Source: Escherichia phage DaisyDussoix. From it: a DNA stretch of 64,000 nucleotides. The DNA is taken from sequence record MZ501058; one strand, given 5' to 3'. A program made the position numbers and the translations under genes. Position 1 is the stretch's first letter; every line of letters begins with the position of its first letter. The notes under the pieces were generated by a model, which was given only the letters and a program-made list of their open reading frames with translations, was not told the origin of the DNA and did no database searches. This document shows, one piece after another, positions 3,769 to 29,136 of this stretch.

Positions 3769-4050
3769 TTAGTTCTGTACTGTAAATTCATTCTTATCAC
3801 AGTGAGCATAATAATACCCATACATACGATAAATTTTCACAGCCTTAGTAGACCCCTTCGATTCTTCATAATCAATCCAGAGCCACTTGTCTTTACCTAC
3901 ATAATGTACCCGAAACTTCTTAACTTTCTTATCATTCCATGTTGCAACAACACGACGATAATCAAATCCGCCCAACCAATCTAGAGCCTTACGTTCTTCA
4001 CTAGGCTCTCCAAGATGGGAAACATCTACTTTCGGAAGCAATTCGCTCAT
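3769..4050 (-). CDS. hypothetical protein
   Basis: 93 aa ORF directly downstream of nrdD; no radical-SAM CxxxCxxC motif, so not NrdG. Confidence 0.5.
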   Translation of the reverse strand: MSELLPKVDVSHLGEPSEERKALDWLGGFDYRRVVATWNDKKVKKFRVHYVGKDKWLWIDYEESKGSTKAVKIYRMYGYYYAHCDKNEFTVQN

Positions 4051-4148
4051 AGCTTTCTCCTCTCAAATTTATAAATCAATTATACATAAGTTTTAGCTCG
4101 AAAGCAAATAAAATAAAAGCCAGGTCGACTAGCAACCTGGCTGATTCA

Positions 4149-18413: not shown

Positions 18414-18584
18414 ATGAAATCAGTTGTAATTATTGGTGTTAATACTCGTGGTATCCGTACTACGAAAACAGTTAAAACTACTAACGTTGCTGAAATTACT
18501 ACAAACCCTAAGAAGTTTGATTTCGCCAAAGTCTCAGCAGTTATGACAGAGCAATCTTTTAACCAAGCACTGGGGATGAAATAA
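18414..18584 (+). CDS. hypothetical small protein
   Basis: 56 aa ORF (MKSVVIIGVNTRG...) with GAGAGGAAG RBS; below the ORF-track cutoff. Confidence 0.35.
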   Translation: MKSVVIIGVNTRGIRTTKTVKTTNVAEITTNPKKFDFAKVSAVMTEQSFNQALGMK

Positions 18585-19033
18585 TGGAAGAGAATATTCT
18601 AGATGTTTTGCGTAGGGCTTTGCAGGAATCTAAGGTTGATGGTTCTGATAAAGAAGTAGCTAAAAGCTACCAGACCATAATCGGAGATCTTCAGCGTGTT
18701 GATAAAGACTTCATTACTTCTGAACAGTTTGTATCTTATCTAAAAGCTCAACTGAAAAGCATTAATCAGACGAAAGCTAAACTTCACGGTCAAGACATTG
18801 ATAATTATAGCTTGCAGTCTGCTCAGTATGAATATATACTGAACAAATGGTTACAACAGTATCTGCCGCCTCAGCTTTCTGATTCTGAGATTCGCAAATA
18901 CTTTGCAGAATTAGTTAAGTTGAACCCTGGGATTACGAAAGGTATGCTGATGAAAGCGATTAAGGAAGAATTCCCTGGTCGTTATGATGGTGGTATTGCT
19001 GCTCAAGTTGCTGGCGAATTCAATAAAAATTGA
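18584..19033 (+). CDS. hypothetical protein
   Basis: 149 aa ORF. Confidence 0.55.
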   Translation: MEENILDVLRRALQESKVDGSDKEVAKSYQTIIGDLQRVDKDFITSEQFVSYLKAQLKSINQTKAKLHGQDIDNYSLQSAQYEYILNKWLQQYLPPQLSDSEIRKYFAELVKLNPGITKGMLMKAIKEEFPGRYDGGIAAQVAGEFNKN

Positions 19034-19034
19034 T

Positions 19035-19063
19035 TTGCTAAACGCTTCAAAATTCTGTATAAT
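19035..19063 (+). promoter_or_regulatory. T5-type early promoter reading into ORF-free block 19081-19920
   Basis: TGATTTGCT ... TCTGTATAATAGATTCATAAATTAGAGA, close to recalled T5 P25/P26-type sequence. Confidence 0.7.
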
Positions 19064-19080
19064 AGATTCATAAATTAGAG

Positions 19081-19920
19081 AACAGCGAGCCGATTACGCT
19101 GAGTGAGTTTAGTGATTCCTAATAGGATAGCTATCCCACTGAATAGAGTCGGTGAGTTGGAGACTAGTAAGTACTCTTAGAGAGGCTACGAGCTAACGCT
19201 TATTGCTATTGATAGGGAACTGAAAATCTGCGGAAAACTCGGGAGCTGTCCCGAAATCTCGTAAACTCTTCTCTAGTTTATGTTAGTGGGGTGTCGAACT
19301 GACTTATGTGATAACACTGCCGTCCTAGTATAAACGGTAATATCAAACCGTAACTGGTGGAAGATGCAGGTTCGAATCCTGCGGTCGGAAAGAATCAGAT
19401 AACTCGGGCTTATACCGGATAAGCATTCGCTGCTGTAGTACATACTATGACGGTTCAGGAGGTACGCCGCCTGATCAGTATTAGGTTAGAATCGAAACAG
19501 CTAAACCACGAGGAAACCTGACGGCCTCAATCAAACTCGGAACTCGGGATCACTGCCTAGTGTGTGCCCCGTTTAACCTGAGACTAGGCATCCAGCTTCG
19601 CATCGAAAATCGGAGGTGCGATTCTAACAGACCGCGTGAATATGAGAGTGGGAAATGCTGACATGAGAGATGTCACTAATGGTGCCCAATAGTACAGGTA
19701 ATTCGCGATAATTCCTGTTGAGCGGCAGCAGTAGGCTGGGAGTCATGACCTAAGCCTAACCGAGTTCTTCACATACGGAGAACATAACCACAAAGTCACC
19801 CTGACTTAAACTGGAGGATATTATCTGACGGAAGGGCTGCAGAGCTTAATCTGAGGGGGCTGACCCTACCTACCGTCGGGTATCTTTAAGAGCTTTTATA
19901 AGAGTTCTTAAAAATACCTA
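19081..19920 (+). ncRNA. ORF-free transcribed block, candidate stable structured RNA(s) of unknown class
   Basis: 840 nt without ORF of 60 aa or more, directly downstream of a consensus T5-type promoter; many GC hairpins (GGATAGCTATCC, CGGGAGCTGTCCCG, GCCTAGT...ACTAGGC) and a tRNA-like T-arm at 19366-19382 that lacks a pairing acceptor strand. Confidence 0.3.
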
Positions 19921-19922
19921 AA

Positions 19923-19994
19923 CGGGGTGTAGTCTAAGGGATAGGCAGGAGTCTTCTAAATTCCTTTATGCAGGTTCGAATCCTGTCACCTCGG
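19923..19994 (+). tRNA. tRNA-Arg (anticodon UCU)
   Basis: Acceptor CGGGGTG/CACCTCG, loop CTTCTAA, T-arm GCAGG-TTCGAAT-CCTGT, encoded CCA. Confidence 0.8.
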
Positions 19995-20023
19995 CCAATT
20001 TTATTAACTGCTAGGAAAATAAA

Positions 20024-21816: not shown

Positions 21817-21902
21817 GGAAGAATAGCATAACGGTATTGCAGCAGATTGCTAATCTGTCGGTTTGAAATATAGCCTTGTGGGTTCGATTCCCACTTCTTC
21901 CG
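21817..21902 (+). tRNA. tRNA-Ser (anticodon GCU), type II
   Basis: Acceptor GGAAGAA/TTCTTCC, loop TTGCTAA, long variable arm, T-arm GTGGG-TTCGATT-CCCAC, CCA. Confidence 0.85.
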
Positions 21903-21911
21903 CCAAATTCT

Positions 21912-21986
21912 GGTTCTCAAGCTCATATGGTATGAGCACCCAGCTCATAACTGGAAGGTACGTAGGTTCGAATCCTCGGGGAGCCA
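21912..21986 (+). tRNA. tRNA-Met or Ile2 (anticodon CAU)
   Basis: Acceptor GGTTCTC/GGGAGCC with G-U pairs, D-stem GCTC/GAGC, loop CTCATAA, CCA; T-stem pairs imperfectly. Confidence 0.7.
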
Positions 21987-26925: not shown

Positions 26926-27001
26926 AGATCGCTAGCTCAATAGGTTTAGTAGCATCCGACTTTTAATCGGAAGGTTCTGGGTTCGAGTCCCAGGCGATCT
27001 A
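26926..27001 (+). tRNA. tRNA-Lys (anticodon UUU)
   Basis: Acceptor AGATCGC/GCGATCT, stem TCCGA/TCGGA, loop CTTTTAA, T-arm CTGGG-TTCGAGT-CCCAG, CCA. Confidence 0.85.
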
Positions 27002-27008
27002 CCAAATT

Positions 27009-29029: not shown

Positions 29030-29103
29030 GTGGCTATATCATAATTGGTTAATGATCCTGATTGTGAATCAGGCCTATGTGGATTCGAATTCCACTAGCC
29101 ACC
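29030..29103 (+). tRNA. tRNA-His (anticodon GUG)
   Basis: Acceptor GTGGCTA/TAGCCAC, stem CCTGA/TCAGG, loop TTGTGAA, T-arm GTGGA-TTCGAAT-TCCAC, CCA. Confidence 0.85.
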
Positions 29104-29136
29104 CCAAATTAACTTAACTTAAATAGGAAATAAAAT

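What the first reader, a model, noticed from the sequence alone, without database searches (positions are those of the whole stretch)
19035..19920. 840 nt ORF-free block transcribed from a consensus early promoter, with a tRNA-like T-arm but no tRNA
The longest noncoding stretch in the early region begins right after a T5 P25-like promoter and ends at tRNA-Arg. It contains many GC hairpins and a perfect GCAGG-TTCGAAT-CCTGC T-arm whose flanks do not form an acceptor stem. It may encode one or more stable RNAs, a tRNA-like structure, or degenerate tRNA pseudogenes.
Basis: seen in the sequence. Interest (0 to 1): 0.6.

Follow-up and report, generated by a model that had tools for sequence, protein, structure and literature searches.

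The report
Large structured phage RNA (T5 RNAX)
The gene-free block is this phage's copy of "RNAX", an about 850-base folded non-coding RNA with a built-in tRNA look-alike that T5-like phages carry at the head of their tRNA cluster; it has a GenBank label but no described structure or function.

Summary
The observation mostly holds. Window 19034-19922 has no ORF above 56 aa. A sigma-70 promoter match (TTGCTA-17-TATAAT) lies at 19035-19063, the T-arm at 19366-19382 and tRNA-Arg(UCU) at 19923. One detail is wrong: the T-arm flanks do form an acceptor-like stem. Rfam's tRNA model scores 29.3 bits there (cutoff 29) but skips the anticodon arm.

The block is orthologous to misc_RNA "rnaX/RNAX: stable RNA with unknown functions", annotated in phage T5, Salmonella phage 5 and DT571/2. 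It occurs in about 500 Demerecviridae genomes and matches no other Rfam family. It does not look coding: substitutions lack 3-periodicity and indels are mostly not multiples of 3.

It looks like a multi-domain structured RNA. Covariation supports:
- a closing helix and an H-type pseudoknot in the 5' domain;
- a three-way-junction core with a long arm capped by the tRNA-like module;
- a conserved 3' domain whose hairpin loop holds an invariant palindrome, GUCAUGAC;
- an 11-bp helix and a nearly invariant terminal hairpin.

Modules are swapped or lost between phages: the tRNA-like element, the 5' domain and an extra 170-250-nt domain. Function is unknown. The closest analogues are the GOLLD and ROOL RNAs of phage tRNA islands, by context only.

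The parts
19035..19063 (+). Early-type sigma-70 promoter: -35 TTGCTA, 17-nt spacer, -10 TATAAT. The inferred start is near 19070.
   Evidence: Consensus scan. The homologous site is annotated 'promoter P16-17' in T5 and phage 5. The motif TATAAT-N6-ATAAATT is conserved in all relatives. The start site is inferred, not mapped.
19070..19917 (+). RNAX body, 848 nt: a non-coding, multi-domain structured RNA.
   Evidence: It is 75% identical over 75% of its length to the annotated rnaX of phage 5. There is no coding signal. Covariation supports the fold. The z-score is -2.47.
19070..19281 (+). 5' domain closed by helix P1, AUAAAUUAGAGA (19070-19081) with UCUCUAGUUUAU (19270-19281). It is dispensable: T5-type copies replace 19083-19268 with a short loop, and some phages carry an HNH endonuclease ORF there.
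   Evidence: Predicted by RNAalifold. Sequence variants show GAGAG/CUCUC changing to GAUG/CACC. The T5 deletion is seen; the HNH replacement.
19083..19153 (+). H-type pseudoknot. Stem 1 is CAGCG (19083-19087) with CGCUG (19097-19101). The loop GCCGAUU (19089-19095) pairs with AGUCGGU (19147-19153). A variable hairpin lies in between.
   Evidence: 96% of cells are paired, against 24-46% in slid controls. Three pairs change on both sides, with C-G, U-A and A-U seen at one position. The alignment was built with the variable hairpin replaced by N.
19286..19509 (+). Core domain closed by helix P-alpha, GUGGGGUG (19286-19293) with UAAACCAC (19502-19509). Inside is a three-way junction with P2, CGAA (19295-19298) with UUCG (19426-19429), and P5, GCUGU (19432-19436) with ACAGC (19497-19501). 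P5 carries an inserted hairpin at 19442-19481.
   Evidence: P-alpha has two positions with three pair types each, contributed by Pectobacterium and Providencia phages; 0 of 500 shuffles reach its score. For P2, C-G changes to G-C in T5-type copies (a 1-nt register shift in the alignment hides this). P5 variants are read from sequences: GCUA/UAGC, GCUAGG/CCUAGC, GGCA/UGCC. P5 is tentative.
19299..19407 (+). Long irregular arm P3, 19299-19312 with 19394-19407, plus CU (19317-19318) with AG (19391-19392). It carries the tRNA-like module at its tip.
   Evidence: Twelve pairs, 99% of cells paired, 7 pairs with changes on both sides (helix 2).
19319..19390 (+). tRNA-like module. Acceptor-like stem 19319-19325 with 19383-19389. 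D arm 19328-19331 with 19340-19343, with GG in its loop. Degenerate anticodon arm 19346-19359 with a 6-nt loop GUAACU. T arm 19366-19382.
   Evidence: Rfam tRNA 29.3 bits with the anticodon arm skipped. ARAGORN assigns different 'anticodons' in other phages: Ser-act, Ser-aga, Leu-tag. An unrelated hairpin replaces the module in phage 1-29, L009, L026 and Providencia phages. A hairpin is inserted in the 'anticodon loop' in L028, L030, L045 and L052.
19408..19424 (+). Hairpin P4, GCUUAU-ACCGG-AUAAGC.
   Evidence: Six pairs, 3 with changes on both sides, 96% of cells paired (helix 7).
19510..19647 (+). Variable middle region. Its structure was not resolved here and it differs between lineages.
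   Evidence: Alignments. Only local hairpins are predicted.
19648..19791 (+). Conserved 3' domain. P-beta GUGG (19648-19651) with CCAC (19788-19791) is invariant and therefore tentative. Hairpin P7 is 19659-19675. The outer P8 helix is 19681-19687 with 19722-19729. The inner P8 helix is 19694-19698 with 19714-19718. P9 is 19733-19757. P10 is 19764-19783.
   Evidence: RNAalifold. Thirteen of 35 pairs change on both sides, against 5.6 +/- 1.6 in shuffles (0 of 500). 96% of cells are paired, against 33-48% when slid.
19742..19749 (+). Invariant palindrome GUCAUGAC in the loop of hairpin P9. It is a candidate kissing-loop or self-association site, or a protein-binding site.
   Evidence: It is invariant in all 37 unique full-length copies, while the stem below it covaries: 4 of 8 pairs change on both sides (helix 5). 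Its function is inferred only.
19794..19879 (+). 3' region. Hairpin P11 is 19794-19806. The 11-bp helix P12 is CUGACGGAAGG (19825-19835) with CCUACCGUCGG (19869-19879). P12 encloses hairpins P13 (19840-19853) and P14 (19855-19867).
   Evidence: The P12 duplex is kept in five lineages with different sequences, -9.6 to -19.2 kcal/mol.
19880..19917 (+). Terminal 18-bp A/U-rich hairpin, nearly invariant in sequence. It lies 5 nt before tRNA-Arg.
   Evidence: Eighteen predicted pairs. Pantoea phage AAS21 has a 36-nt insertion in the apical loop. The sequence is conserved from Pectobacterium to Klebsiella phages. It is not a terminator-like site.
19923..19997 (+). tRNA-Arg(UCU). It is the downstream neighbour of RNAX in every lineage examined. 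Its 5' processing would define the RNAX 3' end.
   Evidence: ARAGORN. Rfam 49.3 bits. Synteny. RNase P cleavage is inferred from general tRNA biology.

Best explanation
The block is the orthologue, in an Epseptimavirus-type T5-like phage, of T5 'RNAX': a stable non-coding RNA of about 848 nt (19070-19917).

**Shown by sequence comparison**
- It is homologous to the annotated rnaX.
- It has no coding signal.
- It has a multi-domain fold with covarying helices:
  - a P1-closed 5' domain with an H-type pseudoknot;
  - a core three-way junction whose long arm is capped by a tRNA-shaped module;
  - a conserved 3' domain with an invariant palindromic loop;
  - helix P12 and a conserved terminal hairpin.
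- The tRNA-like module keeps the acceptor, D and T arms, that is the tRNA elbow. It has no 7-nt anticodon loop and no conserved anticodon. Its acceptor stem continues into a paired helix instead of ending in free CCA. It is exchanged for other hairpins in some phages.

**Inferred**
- It is transcribed early from the promoter at 19035-19063 together with tRNA-Arg.
- It is released by RNase P cleavage at the tRNA 5' end and/or by processing at the terminal hairpin.
- It then acts in trans as a stable structured RNA scaffold, RNA-only or as an RNP. This is the same kind of entity as the GOLLD and ROOL RNAs that phages encode beside tRNA islands.
- The tRNA-shaped tip most likely serves as an exchangeable structural cap or handle for tRNA-recognising factors, not as a decoder.
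- The invariant palindromic loop is the best candidate for self-association.

**Sub-claim likelihoods**
- Structured non-coding RNA: about 0.9.
- The tRNA-like module is not a decoding tRNA: about 0.85.
- Trans-acting scaffold rather than a mere leader: about 0.55.
- Self-association through the palindrome: about 0.25.
For: **Homology and annotation.**: rnaX is annotated in T5 NC_005859, in phage 5 AJ604531 and in DT571/2.

**Non-coding.**
- The longest ORF is 56 aa, and ORFs in relatives fall at inconsistent places and strands.
- Mismatches by position mod 3 are flat, for example 37/34/40.
- Between 0 of 8 and 5 of 18 indels per comparison are multiples of 3.

**Structure.**
- Core: 17 of 44 pairs change on both sides, against 7.5 +/- 1.6 in shuffles (0 of 500). 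Slid controls give 0-6.
- Pseudoknot.
- P-alpha.
- 3' domain: 13 of 35 pairs, against 5.6 +/- 1.6.
- P12 is kept in five lineages.

**Strand.** Pairing is better on the + strand than on the - strand, 88.7 vs 81.5% and 95.9 vs 91.2%, with 90 G-U cells.

**tRNA-like module.**

**Family breadth.** A covariance model of the core finds one copy per genome. It also finds divergent, TLS-less copies in Providencia phages at 56-58 bits.

**Context shared with GOLLD and ROOL.** Phage-encoded, beside tRNA islands, sometimes with tRNAs embedded, variable 5' region (PMC12286853, PMC5737381).
Against: - No transcript data were available. 'Stable RNA' rests only on a GenBank note, with no retrievable paper.
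- The TSS and the 3' end are inferred.
- The folding z-score is only -2.47 from 20 shuffles.
- The sequences fall into a few clades, so shuffle controls overstate significance.
- Part of the structure was derived from the same alignments it was counted on.
- The middle region 19510-19647 and the long-range contacts are unresolved. P-beta and P5 are tentative.
- There is no detectable similarity to the GOLLD or ROOL models, so the analogy is contextual only.
- The 5' domain and the tRNA-like module are dispensable in some phages. This weakens any mechanism centred on them.
Confidence: 0.78

Rival explanations
1. It is only a long, structured 5' leader of the tRNA operon. It acts in cis on processing, stability or transcription of tRNA-Arg and the downstream tRNAs, is degraded after processing, and has no trans function.
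For: It always lies upstream of tRNA-Arg on the same strand, with no terminator-like site in between. The terminal hairpin abuts the tRNA.
Against: In phages 1-29, ende and CitS1, and in Klebsiella, Pantoea and Providencia phages, one or more ORFs separate RNAX from tRNA-Arg. RNAX is still conserved there. An RNA of 640-1290 nt with pseudoknots and invariant loops is far more than leaders need. GenBank annotates it as a stable species.
Confidence: 0.12
2. It is an anti-defence decoy or sponge. The tRNA-shaped module, or the whole RNA, titrates a host tRNA-targeting nuclease or another tRNA-binding defence protein.
For: The tRNA region of T5-like phages is an anti-defence island. Several defences active against T5 cleave tRNAs, such as retron Ec78 PtuAB and the bacterial Schlafens (bioRxiv 10.1101/2023.03.15.532788; bioRxiv 10.1101/2025.07.24.666596). 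Frequent swapping of the module resembles arms-race turnover.
Against: The module lacks an anticodon loop, which is the target of most known anticodon nucleases. Several successful lineages, including Providencia phages, lack it entirely. No experiment links RNAX to any defence. The anti-retron factor Rad of that island is a protein.
Confidence: 0.12
3. The tRNA-like element is a real, unusual tRNA that is excised and used. The rest is precursor.
For: It reaches the Rfam tRNA gathering score here, and 33-39 bits in relatives. ARAGORN calls it a tRNA in three relatives. Some GenBank records annotate it tRNA-OTHER, Sec, Pro or Ser.
Against: - The anticodon arm does not fit the model. Its loop has 6 nt or carries an inserted hairpin.
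- The called 'anticodons' differ between orthologues: act, aga, tag.
- The acceptor stem has a conserved U.U mismatch and no CCA.
- Both flanks are paired in a covarying helix.
- The element is replaced in some phages.
Confidence: 0.05
4. It is a graveyard of decayed tRNA genes or neutral spacer DNA, or a DNA-level element.
For: It lies in a tRNA cluster that also holds homing endonucleases.
Against: Only one tRNA-like match was found. Blocks are strongly conserved from Pectobacterium to Klebsiella phages. Compensatory changes, G-U pairs and a strand bias point to RNA-level selection.
Confidence: 0.02
5. It encodes small proteins, as several GenBank records annotate.
For: Some records list 2-4 'hypothetical proteins' under the match.
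Against: There is no conserved frame, no codon periodicity, and indels shift the frame. The annotated ORFs differ between records.
Confidence: 0.01

Closest known systems
T5 rnaX / RNAX (GenBank misc_RNA in NC_005859, AJ604531 and DT571/2: 'stable RNA with unknown functions')
   Same: It holds the same position: after the YqeY-like gene and promoter P16-17, and before tRNA-Arg(UCU). The sequences are homologous: blastn gives 75% identity over 75% to phage 5, and the core model scores 172 bits in the window against 178-179 in T5 and phage 5.
   Different: The window copy is 848 nt against 719 nt in T5. It keeps the roughly 190-nt 5' domain that T5 lacks. It has a 60-nt hairpin inserted in P5 and a different middle region. 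It lacks the T5 duplication near the 3' end.
GOLLD RNA (Rfam RF01998)
   Same: Both are large, often over 800 nt, and encoded by phages or prophages beside tRNA islands. GOLLD sometimes has tRNAs embedded. Both have a conserved 3' part and a variable 5' part. Function is unknown in both (PMC12286853).
   Different: There is no match to the Rfam model at E up to 1. The hosts differ: Enterobacterales phages here, against Lactobacillales, Mycobacterium and marine sources. Nanocage formation was not tested for RNAX.
ROOL RNA (Rfam RF03087)
   Same: Both are phage or prophage RNAs near tRNAs, with multistem junctions and pseudoknots. ROOL averages 581 nt (PMC5737381).
   Different: There is no Rfam match. 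ROOL has no embedded tRNA-like module. The taxonomic range differs.
Bacterial Y RNAs of the YrlA type
   Same: Both contain a tRNA-mimicking module with D and T arms on a longer helix, and both lack a normal anticodon loop (6-nt loops are noted for Yrn1). YrlA is a substrate of tRNA enzymes (PMC4201824).
   Different: YrlA RNAs are about 100 nt and are encoded next to Ro60/Rsr. No Rsr gene was seen in the gene neighbourhoods examined here. In RNAX the rest of the RNA is joined through the acceptor stem. Rfam gave no Y RNA match.
tmRNA
   Same: Both combine a tRNA-like domain with pseudoknots in one RNA of several hundred nt.
   Different: ARAGORN and Rfam find no tmRNA. The tRNA-like domain of RNAX is internal, not formed by the 5' and 3' ends. 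There is no tag reading frame and no CCA end.

Membership tests
T5 RNAX (annotated stable RNA of T5-like phages) | Sequence homology to the annotated rnaX. | tested here: met
   blastn matches rnaX of AJ604531 (75% coverage, 75.5% identity, E = 2e-59) and T5. The core covariance model scores 172 bits.
T5 RNAX (annotated stable RNA of T5-like phages) | Position: downstream of promoter P16-17 and directly upstream of tRNA-Arg(UCU), on the same strand. | tested here: met
T5 RNAX (annotated stable RNA of T5-like phages) | Accumulates as a stable RNA in infected cells. | not testable with these tools
   Only the GenBank note supports this. No paper was found.
Canonical tRNA (Rfam RF00005) | Score at or above the gathering threshold with a full cloverleaf. 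| tested here: inconclusive
   29.3 bits against a cutoff of 29, reached only by skipping the anticodon arm with a local end. Two acceptor pairs are non-standard. ARAGORN is negative.
Canonical tRNA (Rfam RF00005) | A 7-nt anticodon loop with an anticodon conserved among orthologues. | tested here: not met
   The loop is 6 nt, GUAACU, here. Other phages have a GAGA-type loop, a 3-nt loop or an inserted hairpin. ARAGORN calls give act, aga and tag.
Canonical tRNA (Rfam RF00005) | Single-stranded flanks and a 3' CCA end, encoded or addable. | tested here: not met
   No CCA is encoded. Both flanks are paired in helix P3, which covaries.
GOLLD (RF01998) / ROOL (RF03087) | Match to the family covariance model. 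| tested here: not met
   No hit at E up to 1 with permissive filters, in the window or in seven relatives.
GOLLD (RF01998) / ROOL (RF03087) | Phage-encoded, next to a tRNA island, over 500 nt, with multiple junctions or pseudoknots. | tested here: met
   Criteria are taken from PMC12286853 and PMC5737381.
GOLLD (RF01998) / ROOL (RF03087) | Homo-oligomeric nanocage. | not testable with these tools
   The only hint is the invariant palindromic loop at 19742-19749.
tmRNA, RNase P RNA, group I/II introns | Match to Rfam models or to the ARAGORN tmRNA search. | tested here: not met
YrlA-type Y RNA | A roughly 100-nt RNA encoded beside Ro60/Rsr, with a Ro-binding stem formed by the RNA ends. | tested here: not met
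   The neighbours are a cell-wall hydrolase, DUF7616, a YqeY-like protein and an SPFH protein. RNAX is 848 nt. There was no Rfam Y RNA hit.

The most novel reading that the evidence does not exclude
RNAX may be a new class of giant 'ornate' phage RNA, a functional counterpart of GOLLD and ROOL in T5-like phages of Enterobacterales. On this reading it self-assembles through its invariant palindromic loop (GUCAUGAC). It displays exchangeable tRNA-shaped modules and acts in the tRNA-centred conflict between phage and host. Because it sits in phage T5 and E. coli, the long-open question of what such RNAs do would become directly testable by genetics.
Probability: 0.25. Interest if true: 0.85.

Novelty: new member of a known kind. 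Interest (0 to 1): 0.66.

Why it matters
Large structured bacterial and phage RNAs are rare. The two phage classes found beside tRNA islands, GOLLD and ROOL, still have no known function, and they occur mostly in poorly tractable hosts. RNAX has been a bare label in GenBank records of T5 and a few relatives ('stable RNA with unknown functions'). It is absent from Rfam 15, and no paper on it was found in the searchable literature.

This analysis shows that RNAX is a conserved, modular RNA of 0.64-1.3 kb. It has pseudoknots, a tRNA-mimicking tip and an invariant palindromic loop, and it occurs in about 500 sequenced T5-like phages. That gives a concrete structural model and a genetically easy system, T5 with E. 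coli or Salmonella, in which to ask what tRNA-island RNAs do. It should also stop annotators calling spurious ORFs and 'tRNA-OTHER/Sec/Pro' genes in this block.

Tried and rejected
- **Rfam.** Permissive thresholds on the window (17-33 kb, and 19270-19440) and on seven relatives gave only tRNA matches plus antisense-tRNA artefacts such as Plastid-ycf2. GOLLD, ROOL, tmRNA, RNase P RNA, introns and Y RNA were therefore rejected as memberships.
- **Literature.** Searches for RNAX and for a T5 ncRNA found nothing. The 'Rad' anti-retron factor of the same island is a protein and is unrelated.
- **RNAalifold on a 15-sequence, 1859-column alignment** gave only a partial structure.
- **A home-made all-against-all covariation scan** was dominated by clade effects in poorly aligned regions. 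It recovered only the obvious helices.
- **MAFFT misregisters** P2, the D arm and P12. P12 was therefore checked by duplex folding per lineage. The pseudoknot and P-alpha were counted on alignments in which the variable insert was replaced by N.
- **The Y RNA analogy** was considered and dropped as a membership.
- **Public collections scanned with core patterns.**
  - IMG/VR and metagenome hits lie mostly on T5-sized (about 104-123 kb) contigs, the rest being short fragments; their identity was not checked individually.
  - Bacterial and archaeal genomes gave 0 hits with the strict pattern.
  - A looser pattern gave 16 hits, about the number expected by chance. Thirteen are one conserved Clostridia sequence that looks protein-coding, and none matches the core model.
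- **Other phages with a YqeY-like gene.** Vibrio phage Thalassa and 20 other such loci have no RNAX core.
- **Origin of the tRNA-like module.** It is not a recent copy of any tRNA of this phage. The best identity is 69%, against a background median of 62%.
Full report
The queried block (window 19035-19920) is 100% identical to Salmonella phage 3-29 and related Epseptimavirus genomes, so the window comes from such a T5-like phage. It carries the usual tRNA island of T5-like phages: 23 ARAGORN tRNAs between 19.9 and 31.3 kb.

- Between the stop of a YqeY-like gene (18584-19033; Pfam YqeY) and tRNA-Arg(UCU) at 19923-19997 there is no ORF longer than 56 aa on either strand.
- A promoter-like site TTGCTA-17-TATAAT lies at 19035-19063.
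- The T-arm GCAGG-UUCGAAU-CCUGC is at 19366-19382.
GCCGUCC (19319-19325) faces GGUCGGA (19383-19389) with five Watson-Crick pairs, a U.U and a G.A.
- Rfam's tRNA model matches 19319-19390 at 29.3 bits (gathering score 29). It does so only by skipping the anticodon arm.

**Identity.**
blastn finds the block in 468-528 phage records, named mainly as Salmonella, Escherichia and Klebsiella phages, with fewer Shigella, Citrobacter, Yersinia, Pectobacterium and Pantoea phages; every record opened was Demerecviridae or unclassified. In three records the homologous stretch is annotated: phage T5 (NC_005859), Salmonella phage 5 (AJ604531) and DT571/2. The feature is misc_RNA rnaX, 'RNAX: stable RNA with unknown functions'. 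In T5 and phage 5, the two annotated records opened here, it runs from promoter P16-17 to the first base before tRNA-Arg: 719 nt in T5 and 785 nt in phage 5.

Most other records leave the block blank. Others annotate assorted 'hypothetical proteins' and a 'tRNA-OTHER/Sec/Pro/Ser'. I found no paper on RNAX in the searchable library. The claim of stability therefore rests on the database note alone.

**Not coding.**
- Among 12 representative copies the longest ORFs (40-94 aa) lie at different places and strands.
- Substitutions relative to the window show no codon periodicity, for example 37/34/40 and 47/46/39 by position mod 3.
- Only a minority of indels are multiples of three, from 0 of 8 to 5 of 18.

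**Family and modularity.**
From GenBank loci, IMG/VR and metagenomes I extracted 37 distinct full-length copies of 638-1290 nt. Conserved blocks alternate with lineage-specific insertions, and whole modules come and go:

- The roughly 190-nt 5' domain is absent from T5-type copies. An HNH endonuclease ORF replaces it in phage 2-3, CitS1 and L036.
- An extra 170-250-nt domain sits between P1 and the core in Klebsiella, Pectobacterium, Eos, bastian and other phages.
- An unrelated hairpin replaces the tRNA-like element in phage 1-29, L009 and L026. Two Providencia phages each carry yet another element there.
- A variant tRNA-like element with a hairpin inserted in its 'anticodon loop' occurs in both Klebsiella and Tequintavirus copies.

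A covariance model of the core finds exactly one copy per genome. It also finds a divergent copy (56-58 bits) in Providencia phages (Priunavirus). It finds none in Vibrio phage Thalassa or in 20 other phage contigs that share the YqeY-like gene.

Bacterial and archaeal genomes gave no hit with the strict core pattern. A looser pattern gave only chance-level hits. Thirteen of those 16 are one conserved Clostridia sequence that looks protein-coding, and none matches the model.

**Structure.**
1. *P1.* The first 12 nt of the inferred transcript pair with 19270-19281 and close the 5' domain. Variants change GAGAG/CUCUC to GAUG/CACC.
2. *Pseudoknot.* In the 5' domain the hairpin CAGCG...CGCUG (19083-19101) presents the loop GCCGAUU. 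That loop pairs with AGUCGGU (19147-19153), across a variable hairpin. 96% of cells pair, against 24-46% when slid. One position shows C-G, U-A and A-U.
3. *Core.* P-alpha (19286-19293 with 19502-19509) has two positions with three pair types each, from independent Pectobacterium and Providencia lineages. With P2 (19295-19298 with 19426-19429) and P5 (19432-19436 with 19497-19501) it forms a tight three-way junction.
4. *Long arm.* P2 encloses hairpin P4 and the arm P3 (19299-19312 with 19394-19407). P3 has 12 pairs, is 99% paired, and 7 pairs change on both sides. The arm ends in the tRNA-like module. For the whole core, 17 of 44 pairs change on both sides, against 7.5 +/- 1.6 in shuffles (0 of 500) and 0-6 in slid controls.
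5. *3' domain (19648-19791).* It contains P7, a nested P8, P9 and P10. 13 of 35 pairs change on both sides, against 5.6 +/- 1.6 (0 of 500), and 96% of cells pair.
6. *Palindromic loop.* The loop of P9 holds the palindrome GUCAUGAC (19742-19749). It is invariant in all 37 copies although the stem beneath it covaries.
7. *3' region.* An 11-bp helix P12 (19825-19835 with 19869-19879) is maintained with different sequences in five lineages. An 18-bp terminal hairpin (19880-19917) is almost invariant in sequence, and Pantoea AAS21 tolerates a 36-nt insertion in its apical loop.

Further points on the fold:
- Helices pair better when read on the + strand, 88.7 vs 81.5% and 95.9 vs 91.2%, with 90 G-U cells. 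This fits the promoter orientation.
- The whole RNA folds at -264.5 kcal/mol, z = -2.47, and no shuffle of 20 folds as well.

Caveats: the sequences fall into a few clades, so shuffle controls are generous. Part of the structure was derived from the alignments on which it was counted. The middle region 19510-19647 and the tertiary contacts are unresolved. P-beta and P5 are tentative.

**The tRNA-like module.**
- It keeps the elements that build the tRNA elbow: U8, GG in the D loop, UUCGAAU in the T loop, and an A15:U48-type pair (read from the sequence).
- Its 'anticodon' loop has 6 nt here. In relatives it is a tetraloop, a 3-nt loop or an extra hairpin.
- ARAGORN assigns Ser-act, Ser-aga and Leu-tag to orthologues.
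- It scores 26.6-39 bits, against 34.5-74 for the other tRNA-model matches, the phages' tRNAs.
- It has no CCA, and its acceptor stem continues into the covarying P3 helix.
- It is not a recent copy of any tRNA of this phage.

It is therefore a tRNA-shaped structural module, not a decoder. Whether RNase P, TruB, TrmA or other tRNA-recognising proteins act on it cannot be told from sequence.

**How it most likely works.**
Shown: a conserved, non-coding, multi-domain fold on the + strand, beginning at an early-type promoter and ending at a conserved hairpin 5 nt before tRNA-Arg.

Inferred: it is co-transcribed with tRNA-Arg. It is released by RNase P at the tRNA 5' end and/or by cleavage at the terminal hairpin. 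It then accumulates as a trans-acting scaffold.

The nearest analogues by context are GOLLD and ROOL. These are large ornate RNAs of phages and prophages, 'often near tRNA islands'. GOLLD sometimes has tRNAs in its linker and has a variable 5' region, and both form homo-oligomeric cages of unknown function (PMC12286853; PMC5737381). RNAX matches neither Rfam model, so this is an analogy, not membership. The invariant palindromic loop is the obvious candidate for a kissing-loop self-contact, which I put at about 0.25.

Rival readings:
- *Pure cis-acting leader.* Disfavoured, because ORFs separate RNAX from tRNA-Arg in several lineages that still keep it.
- *Decoy for tRNA-targeting defences.* Plausible given the arms race around T5 tRNAs. 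It is weakened by the missing anticodon loop and by lineages without the module.
- *Genuine odd tRNA, decayed tRNA genes, or small proteins.* These are disfavoured or contradicted by the data above.

**Novelty and verdict.**
The locus is a new, unannotated member of a family that already has a name in GenBank, so it is not a discovery of existence. The family has no Rfam entry, and I found no published structure or function for it. The architecture described here appears to be new description: pseudoknot, three-way-junction core, tRNA-mimic tip, palindromic loop and module swapping. Its presence in T5, a classical model phage of E. coli, makes the open question of what tRNA-island RNAs do experimentally approachable. 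Interest 0.66.

Noticed in passing
window 21912-21986 (+): Rfam calls a tRNA here at 38.2 bits, directly after tRNA-Ser 21817-21905. ARAGORN does not list it. It may be a 24th tRNA or another tRNA-like element.
   Followed up: no
window 19742-19749: The 8-nt palindrome GUCAUGAC in a hairpin loop is invariant in all 37 distinct RNAX copies, while the stem below it covaries. It may be a kissing-loop or a protein-binding site.
   Followed up: partly
L040 636-1118 (phage 2-3); L044 736-1218 (CitS1); L036: An HNH homing-endonuclease ORF occupies the place of the RNAX 5' domain, directly after the same promoter. The RNA gene is therefore a target or landing site for mobile endonucleases.
   Followed up: partly
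L039 1482-1991 (phage 1-29); L043 1757-2266 (ende); L044 1835-2344 (CitS1): A 170-aa hypothetical ORF is inserted between the RNAX terminal hairpin and tRNA-Arg in some Epseptimaviruses. Klebsiella phages carry two small ORFs there.
   Followed up: no
L046 about 4005-4060 (Providencia phage PSTCR5); L059, same region: The Providencia RNAX lacks the tRNA-like tip on P3. It has a T-arm-like GAGGUUCGAUUCCUC flanked by CGGG...CCCG in a different, upstream domain. The Rfam tRNA model did not detect it.
   Followed up: no
window 19286-19293, 19502-19509, 19648-19651, 19788-19791: Two GUGG...CCAC helices are present. In Pectobacterium phages both GUGG strands read ACGG and both CCAC partners can be read as CCGU (a CCAC also persists near the second). 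The alternative nested pairing, GUGG1 with CCAC2, cannot be fully excluded. The Providencia data favour GUGG1 with CCAC1.
   Followed up: partly
L003 1250-1640; L016; L026; L038; L041 (between P1 and the core): An additional conserved domain of about 170-250 nt (AGAAAAUGGUGGAAUCUCACUUUAAC...) is present in many relatives but absent from the window copy. It has no Rfam match.
   Followed up: no
(hit lists): A few records named as Campylobacter or Listeria phages contain this T5-type block. These may be mislabelled hosts or contaminated assemblies.
   Followed up: no
window tRNA genes, minus strand (e.g. 26926-27002, 29030-29104): Rfam 'Plastid-ycf2' and 'Plastid-psbl-rps4' matches lie antisense to tRNAs, far below their gathering scores. 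They are artefacts of tRNA-derived models.
   Followed up: yes
L082-L094 (Clostridia MAGs): The loose core pattern hit the same conserved sequence in 13 Clostridia genomes; it looks protein-coding from third-position variation. It is unrelated to RNAX: the best core-model score is 15 bits.
   Followed up: yes
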